In this document: positions 3,038-14,715 of the stretch, piece after piece | How the letters are laid out: every line of letters begins with the position of its first letter | Numbering within the stretch: the first letter of the stretch is position 1 | Assembly: GCA_902572605.1 (NCBI GenBank) | Contig: CACGGD010000001.1 | Location: 95,861-159,860, forward strand | DNA from: an uncultured Pelagibacteraceae bacterium | GTDB lineage: Bacteria; Pseudomonadota; Alphaproteobacteria; Pelagibacterales; Pelagibacteraceae | Reading direction: 5' to 3' | Length of the DNA stretch: 64,000 nt | Program-made: the position numbers and the translations under genes | Notes under the pieces: model-generated | What the model was told of the DNA's origin: nothing | The model's database searches: none | Seen by the model: only the letters and a program-made list of their open reading frames with translations

Positions 3038-3350
3038 TGTCTATTTTAAGAATTGTTATTTTTTTTTGAGAATCTTCAAAATCTTTGTAACTTAAATATA
3101 TTCTTGAAAAATCCATTGGCATATATTCTATAAAAGATAATTGCTTAATCTTTTTTGATAAGTAACCAGGTGATGAAACATAAAAATAGTCTAATTGAGT
3201 TTCATGTAAATCTTTTTGTATTTCTGCAATTTTTCTGTCAATTTTACGAATATCCTTTTCAACAACTCTTGTTTTATTTTTTATTGTAGACGTAACTCCT
3301 AATAAAATTGAAAATATAAGAATTGATATCATTAAATTGATTTTAGACAT
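3012..3350 (-). CDS. ftsL: Cell division protein FtsL-like (TM plus coiled coil)
   Basis: 112 aa, N-terminal TM followed by a heptad region; canonical position between rsmH and ftsI. Confidence 0.7.
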   Translation of the reverse strand: MSKINLMISILIFSILLGVTSTIKNKTRVVEKDIRKIDRKIAEIQKDLHETQLDYFYVSSPGYLSKKIKQLSFIEYMPMDFSRIYLSYKDFEDSQKKITILKIDNEKKIQKK

Positions 3351-4356
3351 GTGATCTCTCCAAATCTAAATATCTTTTAAACTTATTTACTAATTCATTT
3401 GGATAAATAAATTCATTTTTATTTCTAATGGCATATCTCAGTTTAGCTGAACGAGAAGGTGGATTTTTGATAATTTCTTTATTAGAAGGTTTAAATATTT
3501 TATTTTTATATTTATCGAATAAAGAAATATTAAGATCTTTATTTTCAGGAAAATATCTAGAAGGTTTAGAACGACTAGAGGAAAAATTTCTAAAAAAATA
3601 TTTTACAATTTTATCCTCGATTGAATGAAAACTAACAATTAATATTTTTCCTCCAGGTTTTAAAATTTTTGTTGCATTTATAACCCCATCTACTAGCTCA
3701 GTAATTTCTTTATTTACAAATATTCTCAAAGCTTGAAAAGTTTTTGTACTCGGATTTATGTTGTTTCTATGGTTCTTCTTTTTACTTTTTTCAATAATTG
3801 ATACAAGTTCATCAACCCTTGTAATCTTTTTTATTAACCGAGTTTTAATTATATTTCTTGCGATTCTTGATGCTTCTTTTTCTTCTCCTAAAATTTTAAT
3901 AATAGACTTTAGTGTTTGTTCGCTAAAATTATTTACTACTTCTTCAGCAGAAGTTACTGCGAGACCCATCGACATATCTAGTTTATCTTTGGAATTAAAA
4001 GAAAAACCTCTTTTTAAATTTTTTAACTGAATTGAAGATAAGCCTAGGTCAAATACCACAGCATCAACTGATTGGTTTTTAACAACAGTATTCACCTTAC
4101 TAAATCTTTTTTGATGAAATAAAAATCTATTTGGATATTTTTTTTCTAAATCTTTACTGATTTTTATAATGAATGCATCTCTATCTAGGGCTATAACTTT
4201 TGTCTTAGGGAACTTGAGTAATTTCTTTGAATAGCCTCCTCCTCCAAAAGTGCAATCTATGTAAATACCACCTTTACTAGGAGAGCAAATTTTAATTACC
4301 TCATCCAACATCACCGGAAAATGGGGGTATTCCGATGATGAAGTTGGAGTGATCAT
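3343..4356 (-). CDS. rsmH: 16S rRNA m4C1402 methyltransferase (MraW)
   Basis: HFPVML, DCTFGGGGYS, FDLGLSSIQL, RGFSF, TKTFQALRIFVN, SFHSIEDKIVK, NPPSRSAKLR. Confidence 0.97.
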   Translation of the reverse strand: MITPTSSSEYPHFPVMLDEVIKICSPSKGGIYIDCTFGGGGYSKKLLKFPKTKVIALDRDAFIIKISKDLEKKYPNRFLFHQKRFSKVNTVVKNQSVDAVVFDLGLSSIQLKNLKRGFSFNSKDKLDMSMGLAVTSAEEVVNNFSEQTLKSIIKILGEEKEASRIARNIIKTRLIKKITRVDELVSIIEKSKKKNHRNNINPSTKTFQALRIFVNKEITELVDGVINATKILKPGGKILIVSFHSIEDKIVKYFFRNFSSSRSKPSRYFPENKDLNISLFDKYKNKIFKPSNKEIIKNPPSRSAKLRYAIRNKNEFIYPNELVNKFKRYLDLERSHV

Positions 4357-4374
4357 AATGATATAGTTTAATCA

Positions 4375-5862
4375 TTAAAATTTTTGTTTTCTCAAAAATG
4401 CAGGAATTTCAAAATCTTCTTCTTCGTTTGAGTCCAGATCCAAAAGTTTTTCTGTATGTTCATCTCTACCAGTCTCTTCTAATTCTGTTTCGTCTTGAGA
4501 TTTGATATCATGTAAAAAAAGTTGAGGTGTGTGCCCTTCTTCATTGCTTGTCTCAACATCTGAAGCAGTGCTTTCTTCATGAGTGGATTGTGAAATATCC
4601 TCGTTACTTTCTATGTAAGATGCATTTTCTATGGAAACACCTGCAGGGATATTATTCACTTTCGACTCTATCTCTGGTTCAGACGTGTTTAGTTCTAAAT
4701 CATTAATTATAGGTTGTTGTTCTTTATTATTGAATTCAAACTTTTCATCAAGTTTAAGAGCAGTTGCTCCTTCGATTGAATTAAAAGTATTATTCTCTAT
4801 ATTGTTTGTATTTTGTGAAAATAGATCATCAGAATACCCATGGTTTCTATTTTGTATTCTTGAAGTCATATTTAAAACAGTATTAGTTTGAGGTTTATGA
4901 CCGTCTAAAGCTGTGGCAACAATTGAGACTCTCATTTTGCCTTCCATGTTTTCATCTTTTATAGCACCAAAGATTAATTCTACTTCTGGATCAACTTCGG
5001 CTCTAACTTTTTGAACGGTTTGATCGACCTCAAATAATTTTAGATCTTTACCACCAGTAATATTAATTAATAATCCTTTAGCACCTTTAAGAGAATATTC
5101 GTCAATTAATGGATTATTTAGAGCCATTTCAGTAGCAGCCATTGCTCTGTTTTCTCCTTCAGCTTCTCCAGTTCCCATCATTGCTTTACCCATAGAACTC
5201 ATTACTGTCTCTACATCAGCAAAATCCAAGTTAATCATTCCTGGTCTTACCATTAAATCAGTTACACTTTGCACGCCATGTCTCAAAACATTATTTGATA
5301 AATGAAAGGACTCCTCAAATGTTGTTGTCTCACTGGCAATTTTAAAAAGATTTTGATTTGGCACAACAATAGTAGTGTCCAAATGTTTTTTTAATGCCTC
5401 TAGTCCCTCTACAGCTCTTCTCATTCTTTTTGATCCTTCGTAGTCAAAAGGTAATGTAGTAACTCCAACAGTTAAAATATTAAGTTCTTTAGCTGCTTTA
5501 GCTATAACGTGAGAAGCTCCAGTACCAGTTCCTCCTCCCATTCCAGCAGCAATAAAAACCATGTTGCTTCCTTGTATATAATTAACTATTTCACCTATTG
5601 ATTCATCTGCAGCTGCTTGACCAATATTATGTTTTGCTCCAGCTCCTAGACCTTTAGTTAAATTCATACCTATTTGGATTTTTGCATGTGCTTTACTCTT
5701 TTTTAAATCTTGTGCATCTGTATTAATTGCTACAAATTCAACGCCTTCCATTCCGGACTCGATCATTTCATTAATCGCATTTCCACCTGCTCCGCCGATC
5801 CCTAAAACTAGAATTCTAGGCTTTAATTCTTTTAATTCTCCTCCTCCAATATTTATACTCAT
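4375..5862 (-). CDS. ftsZ: Cell division GTPase FtsZ with long acidic linker
   Basis: GGAGGN, NTDAQ, tubulin signature GGGTGTG, T7 loop INLDFADV, C-terminal peptide FEIPAFLRKQ. Confidence 0.97.
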   Translation of the reverse strand: MSINIGGGELKELKPRILVLGIGGAGGNAINEMIESGMEGVEFVAINTDAQDLKKSKAHAKIQIGMNLTKGLGAGAKHNIGQAAADESIGEIVNYIQGSNMVFIAAGMGGGTGTGASHVIAKAAKELNILTVGVTTLPFDYEGSKRMRRAVEGLEALKKHLDTTIVVPNQNLFKIASETTTFEESFHLSNNVLRHGVQSVTDLMVRPGMINLDFADVETVMSSMGKAMMGTGEAEGENRAMAATEMALNNPLIDEYSLKGAKGLLINITGGKDLKLFEVDQTVQKVRAEVDPEVELIFGAIKDENMEGKMRVSIVATALDGHKPQTNTVLNMTSRIQNRNHGYSDDLFSQNTNNIENNTFNSIEGATALKLDEKFEFNNKEQQPIINDLELNTSEPEIESKVNNIPAGVSIENASYIESNEDISQSTHEESTASDVETSNEEGHTPQLFLHDIKSQDETELEETGRDEHTEKLLDLDSNEEEDFEIPAFLRKQKF

Positions 5863-6323
5863 TCTAACTCCCCTTTCTGTTTATTTTCCCATTTTAGATT
5901 TGATCTATTTTGATAAGCTTTTTTTCTTGCTAGTAGTTTAAATTTTTCAAATATTTTTGGCTCCCATATTTGGAAAGTCTTTCCAAGACCAACAAATAAG
6001 ATATTATTCTTTATGTTGGCGTGATTTAGCAATTTTTCCGTTAGTGATACTCTGCCTTCAGTATCAAATTGTAGGTTTACACTTTCCGATAATATTGAAG
6101 TTGCAAAATAATCTCTTTTTTCTTCAAATGGATTTAATGAGTCTATAGTATTAGATAATTTTTCAATTCTATCTTGAGAGCAAGCCTCTAAAGCAGAGTA
6201 ATTAAATGATGGATAACTTATAAATCCGTTATAGCCTAAAGAGCTTAAATGAGATCTAAAAGTAGAAGGCACTGATACCCTTCCTTTCTTGTCCAACTTG
6301 TTTTCGTAACTTGATAAAAACAT
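5859..6323 (-). CDS. mraZ: Division/cell-wall cluster transcriptional repressor MraZ
   Basis: Two DxxGR motifs (LDKKGRVSVP, FDTEGRVSL) and FVGLGKTFQIW; head of the dcw cluster. Confidence 0.95.
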   Translation of the reverse strand: MFLSSYENKLDKKGRVSVPSTFRSHLSSLGYNGFISYPSFNYSALEACSQDRIEKLSNTIDSLNPFEEKRDYFATSILSESVNLQFDTEGRVSLTEKLLNHANIKNNILFVGLGKTFQIWEPKIFEKFKLLARKKAYQNRSNLKWENKQKGELE

Positions 6324-9072: not shown

Positions 9073-9149
9073 TGGTGGGCCCGCCAGGACTCGAACCTGG
9101 GACCAATACATTATGAGTGTACTGCTCTAACCAACTGAGCTACAGGCCC
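9073..9149 (-). tRNA. tRNA with CAT anticodon, most likely tRNA-Ile2 (lysidine-modified)
   Basis: GGGCCTGTAGCTCAGTTGGTTAGAGCA-GTACA-CTCATAA-TGTAT-TGGTC-CCAGGTTCGAGTCCTGG-CGGGCCC-ACCA. Acceptor stem is Ile-like; CCA is encoded. Confidence 0.93.
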
Positions 9150-9263
9150 AAAAAATTATCTTATCAATTATTACCATTAAAATTAGATAACTAAAATCCA
9201 ATAATTATAGATAAACCTTTAGTTTTTCAGATTTATTTGTTAAATCTTAAAGTTCTTATACCA

Positions 9264-9680
9264 ATGAAAATTATTTTAATTATGGGCCTACCTGGTGCTG
9301 GAAAGACTACTCTCGCCAATGAGTTGACTCCTCTATTAAAAGCTAAGAGAGTAAATGCTGATGAGGTAAGAAAAATTGCTAATGATTGGGATTTTTCAAT
9401 AGAGGGAAGGAATAGACAAGCAAAAAGAATGTCTGAAATGGCATTAAAAATGAAAAAAGAGGGAAATTTTGTTATAGCTGATTTTATTTGCCCTACACCA
9501 GCTACGAGAAAACTGTTTCCTGCAGATTATATTGTTTGGGTAGACACTATTTCAGCTGGAAGATTTGAAGACACTAATCAAATATTTGTAAAGCCAGAAA
9601 AATTTCATTATCATGTCACTTCTCAAGATGCTAAGGTTTGGGCTTCTAAGATAGCTAAAGATTTAAACGATGACCTATAA
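9264..9680 (+). CDS. Small adenylylsulfate-kinase (CysC)-like P-loop kinase
   Basis: GLPGAGKTT Walker A, NADEVR (cf. DGDNVR), DFSIEGRNRQ (cf. FSxEDRxEN), IADFICP (cf. xSFISP), FVKPE. ATG at 9264 preferred over TTG at 9237. Confidence 0.75.
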   Translation: MKIILIMGLPGAGKTTLANELTPLLKAKRVNADEVRKIANDWDFSIEGRNRQAKRMSEMALKMKKEGNFVIADFICPTPATRKLFPADYIVWVDTISAGRFEDTNQIFVKPEKFHYHVTSQDAKVWASKIAKDLNDDL

Positions 9681-10044
9681 ATGGGATAATAAAAAGCCAA
9701 CTGCTCAAATGTTAGGTAGATGGCAACCTTTTCATGACGGCCACTATGCACTTTTTGAAAAAATTTTAGAAAAAACTGGTCAAGTATGCATTCAAATAAG
9801 AGATGTTCAAGGAGTTGATGACAATCCATTTGATTTTGAAACAGTTAAAAAAAAAATTGAGAAAAGATTGAATCCGAAATTTGCTGGAAGATTTAAGGTT
9901 ATACTAGTTCCGAATATTACCAATATATGTTACGGGAGAGGTGTAGGCTACAAAATCGAGGAAATTGTTCTTTCTGAAGAAATTCAAAAAATTTCTGCTA
10001 CAAAAATTAGAGCTAAAATGAGAAAAGAAGGAAAGCTTAGTTGA
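9670..10044 (+). CDS. HxGH-superfamily (cytidyltransferase-like/NadM-like) nucleotidyltransferase
   Basis: GRWQPFHDGH, DNPF, C-terminal ISATKIR; 124 aa. Confidence 0.8.
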   Translation: MTYKWDNKKPTAQMLGRWQPFHDGHYALFEKILEKTGQVCIQIRDVQGVDDNPFDFETVKKKIEKRLNPKFAGRFKVILVPNITNICYGRGVGYKIEEIVLSEEIQKISATKIRAKMRKEGKLS

Positions 10045-10988
10045 GATTAATTTATCACTTAGGATATCCTAGAACAGGAACAACATTACTACAAAAAAAT
10101 ATTTTTAGACACCATCCTGAAATAAATTATTTAGGACCGAAAAGCTATGACTCAAATTATAAGGTCCAAATTGATCAAAAAAAAATAGATGAATTTGAGA
10201 TTTTTTTTCAAAATAATAAAGATCTTAATTATAATGAATTACATAAAAAGATTGATATAAAAAAATTTTCTGATCAAAAAGTAAATATTTTTTCTAGTGA
10301 GAAGTACCTTTACTATAAAAATTATGAAAAATATGATGGACTGATTGTCTTAAAAAATTTTTTAAAGAATCAGTTTCATTTAAATTTTGGAGTTATTTAC
10401 ACAGTAAGAAATCAATATGAATTGATAGAATCAATTTATCACCATAGTTATGGCTACCTAAAGACTTTTTTAAAAAGTAAAAGTATTGAAAATTTAGTTG
10501 ATAAAATTCAAAATCTGAATTTTAGTGAAAATGATAATATTTTTCACTTTTTAAGAGCATATGATTTTAATTATACTTATGAGCATATAAAAAAAAAATT
10601 TACTGATGCTGATATAAAAATTTTAAATTTTAAAGATTTGAACGACAATCCTGACAAATATTATGCAGAGTTATCTAATTTCCTTCATGTAGACTTAAAT
10701 GAATTAAAAAAAAGGGTTCCGAATAAAAGAGAGAATCCAAGTAAAATTGAGGATAATAAAAAAATTTTACAAAGTGAATTTCAGAGGGTTATTAGCGAAA
10801 ATAGATTTTATAAAAAAATAAAGTTTATAATCCCATCATATATAAAAGATAAAATACGTAATTTTTCCTACACAAAAAAAAAAATTAATAAAGAAGATGA
10901 AATAAAAATGAAAAAAATAGTTGAAAAATTCTACTCAAAAAGTAATGAGAACTTTGAAAAAAAAACAGGTATTAAAATTTTTTGGTAG
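10041..10988 (+). CDS. PAPS-dependent sulfotransferase-family protein
   Basis: 5'-PSB motif HLGYPRTGTTLLQ, HPEI, SSE, 3'-PB motif RNQYELIESIY, FKDL...P...LSNFL. TTG start overlaps the upstream stop. Confidence 0.8.
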   Translation: MRLIYHLGYPRTGTTLLQKNIFRHHPEINYLGPKSYDSNYKVQIDQKKIDEFEIFFQNNKDLNYNELHKKIDIKKFSDQKVNIFSSEKYLYYKNYEKYDGLIVLKNFLKNQFHLNFGVIYTVRNQYELIESIYHHSYGYLKTFLKSKSIENLVDKIQNLNFSENDNIFHFLRAYDFNYTYEHIKKKFTDADIKILNFKDLNDNPDKYYAELSNFLHVDLNELKKRVPNKRENPSKIEDNKKILQSEFQRVISENRFYKKIKFIIPSYIKDKIRNFSYTKKKINKEDEIKMKKIVEKFYSKSNENFEKKTGIKIFW

Positions 10989-10989
10989 A

Positions 10990-12861
10990 TTATTTCTCTA
11001 AGAAACTCTTAAGTTGTTTTGATCTACTTGGATGTTTTAATTTTCTAAGTGCTTTTGCTTCAATTTGTCTTATTCTTTCTCGTGTAACAGAAAACTGTAG
11101 CCCAACTTCCTCCAAGGTATGATCTGTGTTCATTCCTATACCAAATCTCATTCTAAGTACTCTTTCTTCTCTTGGTGTTAAAGATGCTAAAATTTTTGTT
11201 GTTGACTCACTTAAATTAGATTGAATGGCAGTGTCTAAAGGTTGTAATGCATTTTTGTCTTCAATAAAATCTCCTAAACTACTGTCTTCCTCATCTCCTA
11301 CTGGGGTTTCAAGTGATACTGGCTCTTTAGCAATTTTTAATACTTTCCTAACTTTTTCTAGAGGCATAGCTAATTTTTTAGCTAGCTCTTCTGGTGTAGG
11401 TTCTCTTCCAAACTCACTCATAATTTGTCTTTGAGTTCTTACTATCTTATTAATTGTTTCAATCATATGAACTGGGATTCTAATCGTTCTTGCTTGATCT
11501 GCAATTGATCTTGTAATGGCTTGTCTTATCCACCAAGTGGCATAGGTAGAAAATTTGTATCCTCTTCGATATTCAAATTTGTCAACAGCTTTCATCAAGC
11601 CAATATTTCCTTCTTGGATAAGATCTAGAAATTGAAGTCCTCTATTAGTATATTTTTTAGCAATAGAAATTACTAATCTAAGGTTAGCTTCAACCATTTC
11701 TTTTTTAGCTATTCTAGATTCTCTTTCACCTTTTTGAATTCTGCTTACTAACTTTTTAAATTCTCCAACGGACAATCCTATTTTTTTACTAAAATCTACT
11801 AATCTTTCTCTTATTTCTGAAAAATCTTTTTTAAATTTCTTGAAAAAATTTTTCCATGTTTGATTTTCTTTTAAGAAAGCCTCAAACTTAGGGTTAATTT
11901 CATTGCCTATATAATATTTTAAAAATTCTTCTCTAGAAATTTTGTTATCCATAGCCAACCTTAATAATATTCCTTCTAAAGAAACTATCTTTTTATTTTC
12001 TTTGTAATGTAACTGAACTAATTCTTCCACGACATGTGGAGCTAGCTGAAGATTCTTAAAATTATCAACTAATAATGCTTGGATCTTTTTAAAGTTCTTA
12101 TTTTTAGATATTGAGAGCTCTTTAGAGTCTAATAAGCAATATAATTTTTCCTTTTGATATTTTTGAAGTTTTAAATAGTTTTTATTTAAAGAGTCTAAAA
12201 TATTTATTATCCTAGGCTTAATTTCCTCTTCCATCTTCGCTAAGGAGACATTAAATTCATCATCTTCCGTTGTTGACTCTTCATCTCTTTTTTCATCTTC
12301 TTTTCTATCTTCATCTTTTTTTTCTTCCTTTTTATCTAATTTCTTTTTAGTTTTTAATTCTTCATTCTCTTCTGAAGATTCGAAGTCTTCGTACGTTGAA
12401 TCTATATCAATTATATCTCTGACTAAAAGTTGTTGATTTTCAATTTGTTCTTTCCATTCAAATATTTTTTTTCCAACTAGTGGGCTCTGCGTTAGGGCAT
12501 TTATCATAACATCTTTCCCTGCCTCGATTCTCTTCGCTATAGCAATCTCTCCTTCTCTGGATAAGAGTTCAACTCCACCCATCTCTCTAAGATACATACG
12601 AATTGGATCATCGCTTTTATCTGAGGATTTTTCTTCAGTTGTACCAGTAGTTTCTTTCTTTTTATTTGATTGAAATTGAGATTTTTTTTCTACTAATGTT
12701 ATTTTTTCATCAACAATAATAATAAAAGCTTTTTCGATATTTTCTATTGTTCCGTTTCTTTTACCTAGAGATTTTCCAAGTTCTTCATAGGTAATAAAAC
12801 CCCTGTGTTTTCCTTTATCTAAAAGTCTCTCAAATGATTTTGTAATTATTTTTTCAGCCAT
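10990..12861 (-). CDS. rpoD: RNA polymerase primary sigma factor
   Basis: Region 1.1, [59 protein letters not shown]. Confidence 0.99.
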
Positions 12862-12923: not shown

Positions 12924-14715
12924 TTATTCCCCATTTATTTGGCTTTTAAGCTTTATTAGCTCGGAGTAGGAGTTTTCATCTAAGTTATTGATCAATTTTT
13001 TTTCAAGAGATTCTATTTTTTTAAGATTATTAAGCTCCTTTAATTCTGCTATCAATTCGTTCAGTAATTCTAATATAGCTTCTTCATCCTTTTTCTTTAG
13101 AATTATTTGAATACTAGAATTTTCCTGAATCTCATCAATAAGTTTTTTGTAATCAACGCTAATTTTTGACTTAATGGTGTCCTGGTCATTACCCTTTAAT
13201 AACGAGGCAATTATTAATTTTTTTAAGCTTTCATTTTTATCCGATAAAAAGGTTATTTCAGATAATTCTTCAATTTTTTTTGATACTATATCAAAATAAT
13301 TGAGCATTATAAATAATACAGAAAATTCTTTTATTTGAATTTTTGAAAAATGACTCTTTTTTTTGTGTAAAGTTTTTGTTTCATTCAATAATTGATAATC
13401 TTGATTTTTATTATACTTGTTAAAAGGACGATATGATTGTCTTGCATTTTGAATTGGAGTTAGTTTTTTAATCTTGTCTAAAAAATCTTCCAAAACGTAT
13501 TTTCTAACTACTTCATCTTTAATTAAATAACATAATTTTTTTATTTGTTTTTCAAATTTAGATACTTCAAAAGGATTTGTTAGATCTATTTTATCAAGGT
13601 GGTAATCCCATATATATGTTTGAATTATTTTTTTTTCTTTTAAAAAAGATAAAAATTTTTCCTTTACCGCTTCCTTTTATAAAATCATCTGGATCACTGC
13701 CATCAGGCATAACAGAAAAAAAGATTTTATTCTCCTCGTTAATTAATGGAAAAAGTTTTTCAGCAATTCTTGAAGCAGCATTTTGACCACTCTGATCACC
13801 ATCTAAACATATGATTGGATTTGAAAAAAATTTCCAAATCAAATTTATTTGTCGATCCGTTAGAGCTGTTCCCGAATTTGCAATAACATTTTTAATTCCT
13901 GATGAATAAACACTAACTACATCCATATAACCTTCAACAATAATTACTTCGTTAGTTTCGGCTCGGCATGCTTTAGCTTTGTCTAAGTTAAATATCATGC
14001 CACCTTTTTTATAAAATTCAGTTTCTGGTGAATTAATATATTTTGCTAGTTTACTTTCTTTTATTATTCTCCCTCCAAAAGCAATGGTATCTCCAGATAT
14101 GTTGTTTACTGGAAAAATTATTCTTGAATTAAATCTATCAATATATTTTCCACTTTTATCGTGCTTATAGTATAAACCTGTTAAGTTAATATCTTCTTCT
14201 GAATATTTCTTTAAAAGATCTTCATAAAAATTATTTTTCCATGGAACGTAACCTAATTTAAATTCTTCAATTATGTTTTTTGTTAAACTTCTTTTGTTTA
14301 AATAGTTTAATACTTCTTTATTATTTGAGCTAAATAATTCTTTAGAAAAATAATCTGAATATTCTTTATAAATATTTTTATAAGTTTGGAATCTTAATTC
14401 TTTTTTTTTATCAAAATTTGAAAATCTATAAGGTTGCATCCCAGCCTCTGCTGCTAAAATTTTTACAGCTTCACCAAAGCCAATAGATTTAGTTTTCATT
14501 AAAAAATCAAAAATGTTTCCATGTTCACCGCTACTAAAACAATGATAAAATTCTTTTTCATCATTTACGGTAAAGGATGGACTTTTTTCATTTTTAAAAG
14601 GAGAAAGTCCTATAAATTCCTTTCCTCTTTTTTTAAGTTGTACGGATTTGCTTACAACTTGTGATACTTTTAATCTTAATTTTATTTCATCAAGATATTC
14701 TTTTGGATATTTCAT
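12924..14715 (-). CDS. dnaG: DNA primase, split by a +1 frameshift near 13660-13665
   Basis: Zn-finger-like N-terminus (SPFKNEKSPSF...YHCFSSG), KYINSPET, TOPRIM EGYMDV, DGDQSG, DPDD. The second frame is open from about 13660 (KEKFLSFLKEKKIIQTYIWDYHL...) to the stop at 12924. Span is 3n+1. Confidence 0.93.

What the first reader, a model, noticed from the sequence alone, without database searches (positions are those of the whole stretch)
9264..10988. Candidate minimal sulfation system: APS-kinase-like + tiny HxGH nucleotidyltransferase + sulfotransferase
Seen: three co-oriented genes chained by overlaps (11 nt, then a 4-nt TTGA overlap), wedged between tRNA-Ile and rpoD. They encode a CysC-like kinase, a 124-aa HxGH nucleotidyltransferase (GRWQPFHDGH...ISATKIR) and a protein with both PAPS-binding motifs. 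Established: sulfotransferases need PAPS, made by ATP sulfurylase then APS kinase. Sat-type ATP sulfurylases belong to the HxGH/HIGH superfamily and end in an SGTxxR-like motif, but are about three times larger. Cultured SAR11 are known to lack assimilatory sulfate reduction. Inference: the small protein is a stand-alone 'mini ATP sulfurylase', and the trio activates seawater sulfate only for sulfating a product such as a surface glycan or lipid (possibly for phage or grazer evasion), not for nutrition.
Basis: partly seen in the sequence, partly recalled or inferred. Interest (0 to 1): 0.82.

Follow-up and report, generated by a model that had tools for sequence, protein, structure and literature searches.

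The report
Mini ATP-sulfurylase sulfation cassette in SAR11
Three overlapping genes in a SAR11 marine bacterium probably make activated sulfate (PAPS) and transfer it to a cell product, and the 124-residue middle enzyme looks like an undescribed, very small ATP sulfurylase that sits where the long-missing sat gene should be in SAR11.

Summary
Observation confirmed. The three ORFs are an insertion between tRNA(CAT) and rpoD: absent there in 9 relatives, present in six other assemblies. The kinase is a lid-trimmed APS kinase. The third gene is a sulfotransferase (ST) with both PAPS motifs invariant. The 124-aa HIGH nucleotidyltransferase (NT) descends from NadM by sequence but lacks the NMN pocket, and it lacks Sat's QxRN loop, so it is not a Sat. 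Its contexts mirror Sat's. It lies within 7 kb of aprA in 27 SAR11 genomes (upstream of aprMBA in the loci mapped), and 14 aprA-positive genomes have it without any kinase. Among aprA-positive genomes, 53/59 SAR11 have NT and 3 have Sat; in other Alphaproteobacteria 15/16 have Sat and none has NT. NT is absent from 62 SAR11 genomes lacking both aprA and an APS kinase. Kinase-NT fusions lie near STs in 14/50 soil loci (0.2 to 1.1 expected). Best reading (0.78): a third, minimal ATP sulfurylase class; here it supplies PAPS. No activity is shown, and the acceptor and any anti-phage role are untested. This scan noted the same pair before on other DNA; I found no paper describing it.

The parts
9073..9149 (-). 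tRNA, anticodon CAT (probably tRNA-Ile2); left flank of the insertion
   Evidence: about 27 nt from the rpoD stop in relatives without the cassette
9264..9680 (+). Compact APS kinase (CysC family) with shortened lid; keeps the P-loop and R36, D33, F44, R49, P77, R82
   Evidence: Pfam APS_kinase; family profile ranks APS-kinase-domain chains first, E to 3e-21, against 5e-8 for shikimate kinase; conservation; structure Z 17.7, rmsd 1.7 over 124 residues to M. tuberculosis CysC
9670..10044 (+). 124-aa HIGH-superfamily nucleotidyltransferase, NadM-derived, NMN-binding helices deleted; proposed minimal ATP sulfurylase
   Evidence: sequence and fold; context
10041..10988 (+). PAPS-dependent sulfotransferase (Sulfotransfer_1-like), 21% GC; 5'-PSB loop G8-T15, R123 and S131 of the 3'-PB motif, S85 and E87
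   Evidence: more distant homologues lie in glycan islands
10990..12861 (-). rpoD, convergent; right flank of the insertion

Best explanation
The cassette is a lineage-specific insertion that makes and uses PAPS. Step 1 (inferred): the 124-aa NT catalyses ATP + sulfate <-> APS + PPi by HIGH-type adenylyl transfer, the acceptor being a bare oxyanion held by invariant Arg residues (R17, R44, R90, R114) where NadM holds NMN. Step 2 (family assignment shown, activity inferred): the compact CysC phosphorylates the 3'-OH of APS and pulls the unfavourable first step. Step 3 (family shown, acceptor inferred): the ST moves the sulfuryl group to an acceptor, most likely a surface glycan. Elsewhere in SAR11 the same NT takes the place of sat upstream of aprMBA and would finish sulfite oxidation (APS + PPi to ATP + sulfate). 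It would be a third ATP sulfurylase class beside Sat and CysDN, evolved from a NadM-like ancestor.
For: (a) Position. NT-aprM-aprB-aprA in SAR11 genus g1 and kinase-NT-CADD-aprMBA in g4, g9, g11 (AprA 993 bits and AprB over cut-off), versus sat-aprM-aprB-aprA in three other Alphaproteobacteria and A. vinosum (PMC3779200). NT is within 7 kb of aprA in 27 genomes. (b) Complementary distribution. aprA-positive SAR11: 53/59 have NT, 3/59 Sat, none CysD. aprA-positive non-SAR11 Alphaproteobacteria: 15/16 Sat, 0/16 NT (positive control). (c) NT is in 0/62 sampled SAR11 genomes with neither aprA nor an APS kinase; 14 have NT + aprA and no kinase; only 1/10 CysD-positive genomes has NT. (d) The kinase tracks STs: of 56 genomes, 31 have both, 19 neither, 6 one only; at this same site one lineage keeps kinase + ST without NT. 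(e) Fusion. PHROG 10255 covers both halves; 78/80 soil loci and 55/82 viral loci are fusions; one fusion (P0224) has a full-lid CysC. (f) STs lie within 6 kb in 14/50 soil loci against 0.17 expected, or 1.1 if ST counts were fivefold higher. Phage Sano has an ST-like gene two ORFs upstream (weak Pfam hit, both motifs); DLP6 has a Sulfotransfer_2 elsewhere. (g) The family motif YGR(D) aligns to Sat's GRD loop and the C-terminal motif to SGTxxR; NadM's nicotinamide-binding helical segment is missing. (h) CoaD and NadD are separately encoded in this genome and four others.
Against: No activity data. Sequence and fold place NT nearer NadM and PPAT (Z 10.1-10.5) than Sat (best Z 8.7). Sat's sulfate-binding QxRN loop (PMC3779200) is replaced by a NadM-type loop. 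The Sat profile match is weak (probability 46-51%). In genus g8 the pair lies 47-417 kb from aprA, and a HIT protein, another candidate APS consumer, sits upstream of aprM there. Six aprA-positive SAR11 genomes (mostly 62-78% complete) and one 99% complete alphaproteobacterium (G518) show neither NT nor Sat. Four of the five Sat-positive SAR11 genomes also have NT. Most marine phage loci show no ST nearby: 1/82 with my profile, 0/26 records with PF00685; these are mostly fragments. The counts are across kin, so they are not independent events.
Confidence: 0.78

Rival explanations
1. NT handles a related but different adenylate in sulfur metabolism (for example it adenylylates thiosulfate or a small sulfonate, or works only in the APS-consuming direction). 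PAPS for the ST then comes from Apr-made APS, and the HIT protein may be the real APS sink of the apr operon.
For: No QxRN loop. HIT is co-oriented upstream of aprM in g8 and near suyAB in g1. xsc, suyAB-like and YeeE-type genes lie nearby.
Against: Genus g2 (0/21 aprA, 0/21 CysD, 1/21 Sat) has kinase-NT fusions, and all six g2 genomes tested carry STs. 15 of 20 kinase-positive genomes with no Apr, Sat or CysD have NT. They need an APS source from sulfate.
Confidence: 0.11
2. Split NadR-like NAD salvage: a ribosylnicotinamide-type kinase plus an NMN adenylyltransferase, with the ST a chance neighbour.
For: NadM is the closest sequence relative (HHalign 98.9% on the N-terminal half). Kinase + HIGH fusions exist in NadR, and phages carry NAD salvage genes.
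Against: The kinase is CysC-like by profile and fold. The NMN-binding segment is deleted. NadD is present. No NAD-pathway gene recurred among the neighbour clusters I annotated, whereas aprMBA and STs did.
Confidence: 0.06
3. CoA-synthase-like or sugar-activating pair (PPAT + dephospho-CoA kinase logic, or a nucleotide-sugar step of a glycan island).
For: Top structural hit is PPAT, tied with NadM (Z 10.5). Some databases name the protein PPAT. Fusions often lie in glycan islands.
Against: CoaD is present. The PPAT profile match is poor (13%). Dephospho-CoA kinase scores Z 11.6 against 17.7 for CysC. It does not explain kinase-free NT at the head of aprMBA.
Confidence: 0.05

Closest known systems
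Sat-type ATP sulfurylase (PF01747) and the sat-aprMBA operon of Allochromatium vinosum (PMC3779200)
   Same: HIGH fold core (Z 8.7, rmsd 3.5 over 118 residues to T. thermophilus 1v47); HxxH, GR(D) and S-x-T-x-x-R motifs in the same order; same position upstream of aprMBA; same pairing with APS kinase.
   Different: 124 versus about 335-400 aa; no PUA-like N-domain, no QxRN loop, no GxxKxxD loop, no zinc site; not detected by PF01747; NadM ancestry.
Bifunctional PAPS synthases (human PAPSS1, kinase then sulfurylase; Aquifex Sat-CysC; CysNC and rhizobial NodPQ as dedicated PAPS suppliers, the last from own knowledge)
   Same: APS kinase plus adenylyltransferase serving sulfotransferases; kinase-first order in the ~260-aa fusions as in PAPSS.
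   Different: About 260 aa in all versus 550-630; trimmed kinase lid; split into two overlapping genes here; the sulfurylase half is neither Sat nor CysD.
NadM / archaeal NMN adenylyltransferase (TIGR01527, PRK01153)
   Same: Closest sequence relative over the first 80 residues (E 9e-13).
   Different: Scores 25-29 bits against cut-offs of 127-181; the NMN-binding helices are deleted; invariant R44 and YGR replace the NadM residues; sulfur context.
CysC APS kinase (PF01583, TIGR00455)
   Same: Fold and APS-site residues; annotated cysC in SAR11, with the same strain pattern as aprA in Table 3 of PMC5069961.
   Different: 138 aa, lid shortened; 39 bits against a 139-bit TIGR cut-off.

Membership tests
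Sat ATP sulfurylase (PF01747) | Match to PF01747 | tested here: not met
   No hit for the protein or in the genome
Sat ATP sulfurylase (PF01747) | QxRN(P) sulfate-binding loop before HxxH | tested here: not met
   NadM-type G16-R17-x-Q19-P20 instead; Sat loop and PMC3779200
Sat ATP sulfurylase (PF01747) | GRD loop after strand 4 and SGTxxR motif | tested here: met
   G89-R90 invariant, D the majority residue at 91 (G in this protein); S109, T111, R114 conserved; aligned to Sat by HHalign at low probability. GxD-type loops also occur in other HIGH enzymes
Sat ATP sulfurylase (PF01747) | Three-domain ~400-aa architecture | tested here: not met
   Single 124-aa domain
ATP sulfurylase activity (EC 2.7.7.4) | ATP + sulfate <-> APS + PPi | not testable with these tools
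   Inferred from context only
CysD (TIGR02039) | PP-loop CysD subunit with CysN GTPase | tested here: not met
   HIGH fold; no CysD found in the assembly
NadM/NMNAT | Score over the family cut-off | tested here: not met
NadM/NMNAT | Helical NMN-binding segment with nicotinamide-stacking Trp between strands 3 and 4 | tested here: not met
   Segment absent against a phage NadM; role of the Trp from own knowledge
HIGH nucleotidyltransferase superfamily | Rossmann core with HxGH and a C-terminal SxT/S-x-x-R motif | tested here: met
APS kinase (CysC) | P-loop NMP-kinase fold closest to APS kinases | tested here: met
APS kinase (CysC) | APS-site Arg/Phe/Arg and the ISP-type loop | tested here: met
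   R36 invariant; F44, R49, P77 at 90% or more; aligned to solved CysC; residue roles from own knowledge
APS kinase (CysC) | Full lid region and equivalog cut-off | tested here: not met
   Lid shortened; below cut-off; so a divergent subfamily
PAPS-dependent sulfotransferase (PF00685) | 5'-PSB loop and 3'-PB R-x7-S motif; Pfam gathering score | tested here: met
   22.4 bits against 22; motifs invariant in 22 homologues
PAPS-dependent sulfotransferase (PF00685) | Acceptor specificity | not testable with these tools
   Glycan acceptor inferred from homologue neighbourhoods

The most novel reading that the evidence does not exclude
The 124-aa NadM-derived protein is a third, independently evolved class of ATP sulfurylase, about a third the size of Sat. 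It completes the Apr sulfite-oxidation route in SAR11 with ATP gain and, with a trimmed CysC, supplies PAPS for sulfation in SAR11, soil Alphaproteobacteria and many phages.
Probability: 0.75. Interest if true: 0.85.

Novelty: new variant of a known kind. Interest (0 to 1): 0.74.

Why it matters
SAR11 is described as having AprBA and cysC but no sat or cysDN (PMC5069961), which leaves APS with no known exit or source. If this protein is an ATP sulfurylase, the sulfite-to-sulfate route of the ocean's most abundant bacteria is complete and could yield ATP from organosulfur. SAR11 and its phages could also sulfate surfaces without assimilating sulfate. Genome annotations that score sulfur pathways on sat and cysDN would be missing a family with thousands of members, now labelled cytidyltransferase or PPAT. 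The claim needs one enzyme assay on a 124-residue protein.

Tried and rejected
Four of the paper searches returned nothing and none described this family; the library lacks most subscription journals, so this does not prove novelty. Whole-protein HHalign of NT against five divergent SAR11 Sats gave only the HxxH region. The repeat search found no att-like direct repeat at the insertion ends, only chance AT-rich matches. The promoter scan was at chance level. A 48-sequence tree of NT was mostly unresolved, so no donor is named. The ESM Atlas gave only 'cytidyltransferase' clusters. A SulP transporter was not found in this assembly. aprA was not found in this genome or in G695, but both are incomplete. 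The first genome scan with the deep alignment failed for lack of a conserved word. No complex prediction was run, since binding is not claimed and the halves are often fused. cysH and cysIJ were not searched in this genome.

Full report
Observation. The three ORFs, their 11-nt and 4-nt overlaps, the motifs and the flanks are as described. The host is a SAR11 genome (about 29% GC; neighbours named Pelagibacter), 909 kb and 82% complete. In nine relatives from three genera, rpoD runs straight into the tRNA with no cassette, and BLASTN leaves a gap at about window 9155-10986. The same trio sits at the same site in six other assemblies, but the ST orthologue is in only 2 of 178 species of the genus and has 21% GC against 29-34% for its neighbours. 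It is therefore a lineage-specific insertion. One lineage has only kinase + ST at this site.

Kinase. A profile of 33 family members ranks APS-kinase-domain chains first (E to 3e-21; shikimate kinase 5e-8). The model (pLDDT 97) matches M. tuberculosis CysC at Z 17.7 and rmsd 1.7, ahead of gluconate kinase (15.5) and dephospho-CoA kinase (11.6). The P-loop and R36, F44, R49 and P77 are conserved; in CysC these bind APS (own knowledge). The lid is shortened, and the protein is far below equivalog cut-offs. It is a divergent CysC. PMC5069961 lists cysC in SAR11 strains with the same pattern as aprA.

Sulfotransferase. It just passes the Pfam Sulfotransfer_1 cut-off, and the 5'-PSB loop and the R123/S131 pair are invariant in 22 homologues. 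Two more distant homologues lie among epimerases, NDP-sugar enzymes, glycosyltransferases, NeuB and Wzy. A surface glycan is the likeliest acceptor; this is inference.

Nucleotidyltransferase, anatomy. The family is large: 7987 hits among 8000 scored candidates and 1455 clusters at 50% identity. The model (pLDDT 94) is a bare HIGH core; PPAT and NadM score Z 10.1-10.5 and the best Sat 8.7. The first 80 residues are NadM-like. After strand 3 the chain goes directly to strand 4, dropping the helices that form the NMN pocket. Invariant or near-invariant residues are G16, R17, Q19, H22, H25, R44, N82, Y88-G89-R90, G93-Y94 and R114. HHalign places YGR(D) on Sat's GRD loop and the last motif on SGTxxR, at low probability. 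Sat's QxRN loop, which binds the sulfate of APS (PMC3779200), is absent. So the protein fails membership in both Sat and NadM. Several fixed arginines and a removed organic-substrate pocket fit a small oxyanion acceptor, but I could not inspect coordinates.

Context 1, APS reductase. In the window's own genus NT heads aprM-aprB-aprA, beside TauE-like, suyAB-like and xsc genes that release or export sulfite. In g4, g9 and g11 the order is kinase-NT-CADD-aprMBA. In three other Alphaproteobacteria the same position holds sat, as in A. vinosum (PMC3779200). In a 151-genome SAR11 sample, 53 of 59 aprA-positive genomes have NT, 27 of them within 7 kb; Sat is in 5 genomes and CysD in 10. Sixteen aprA-positive genomes from other alphaproteobacterial families have Sat in 15 cases and NT in none (control). 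Fourteen genomes have NT and aprA but no kinase, and none of 62 genomes lacking both aprA and a kinase has NT. These genomes are kin, so the counts describe a few evolutionary events, not 151.

Context 2, kinase and sulfotransferases. Kinase-NT fusions of about 260 aa are the common form outside SAR11: PHROG 10255, 78/80 soil loci and 55/82 viral loci. In SAR11, ST presence follows the kinase (31 both, 19 neither, 6 discordant). Genus g2 has fusions next to STs and no aprA or CysD in 21 genomes, so APS there most likely comes from sulfate. Phage evidence is thinner. Sano has an ST-like ORF two genes upstream, DLP6 has a Sulfotransfer_2 elsewhere, and two neighbour clusters in marine phage loci match Sulfotransfer_2. 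Most marine fragments show none.

Mechanism. One protein linked separately to APS reductase and to APS kinase has APS as the common metabolite, and HIGH enzymes interconvert ATP + X-O(-) with AMP-X + PPi (established). ATP + sulfate <-> APS + PPi is the simplest fit. Here the kinase would pull the reaction to PAPS for the ST; in apr operons it would run towards ATP. Shown: gene identities, fold, motifs, positions and distributions. Inferred: all three activities, the direction and the acceptor. The apr region of this assembly is missing with its flanks, so the APS source in this cell is open.

Rivals. A HIT protein upstream of aprM in g8 could be an alternative APS sink, and NT might act on a related sulfur adenylate (0.11). 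NAD salvage (0.06) and CoA or sugar activation (0.05) conflict with the CysC-type kinase, the deleted pocket, the presence of NadD and CoaD and the sulfur contexts.

Prior knowledge. PMC5069961 states that cysDNCHIJ and sat are absent from Pelagibacter ubique and that AprBA may detoxify sulfite. I found no paper that assigns this family. Earlier notes of this scan reach the same idea on other genomes and phages. I had found the apr linkage and the HIT gene before reading the notes that mention them, and I count none of these notes as evidence.

Verdict. A real cassette, best read as a minimal PAPS synthase plus sulfotransferase. The noteworthy part is the candidate third class of ATP sulfurylase: confidence 0.78, new variant of a known kind, interest 0.74.

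Noticed in passing
L281:5534-5935, L282:5538-5936; L198:2944-3342: A small HIT-domain gene is co-oriented directly upstream of aprM in genus g8 and lies near suyAB in g1 and g4. HIT proteins include APS hydrolases and phosphorylases (own knowledge), so it may be a second APS sink.
   Followed up: partly
L206:5034-6014, L201:5530-6495, L209:6191-7198, L231:8428-9417, L232:7035-8030, L041:4088-5023: A ~325-aa pyruvate-kinase-barrel-only gene repeatedly abuts the NT or kinase-NT gene in glycan islands and in one viral contig. It might regenerate ATP for PAPS synthesis; unexplained.
   Followed up: partly
L112:6561-7148 (Xylella phage Sano gp33): Annotated hypothetical; 195 aa with PAPS-binding-like motifs and a weak Sulfotransfer_4 hit, two genes upstream of the kinase-NT fusion, with a NADAR gene between them.
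   Followed up: partly
L278 (G518, 99% complete alphaproteobacterium): aprMBA present with neither Sat nor the mini-NT found: a further unknown APS route.
   Followed up: no
window 12924-14715 (-): dnaG is split into 373-aa and 189-aa ORFs, whereas close relatives have one 596-aa gene: probably a sequencing frameshift.
   Followed up: no
window 3343-6323 (-): ftsZ lies between mraZ and rsmH at the head of the division cluster; the same order is in L247 and L248.
   Followed up: no
L233-L237; CysD-positive genomes: A minority of SAR11 genomes carry divergent Sat (5/151) or CysD with CysNC-length partners (10/151), in one case next to a sulfotransferase (G130): several PAPS suppliers seem to be exchanged within SAR11.
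   Followed up: partly
L194 (G022, 98% complete): NT remains at the usual site between the CADD and TauE-like genes although aprMBA is gone; a canonical-type CysC lies elsewhere in the genome.
   Followed up: partly
L240:1929-2687 (G031): A different 252-aa gene is inserted on the other side of the same tRNA, so this tRNA region takes up cargo more than once.
   Followed up: no
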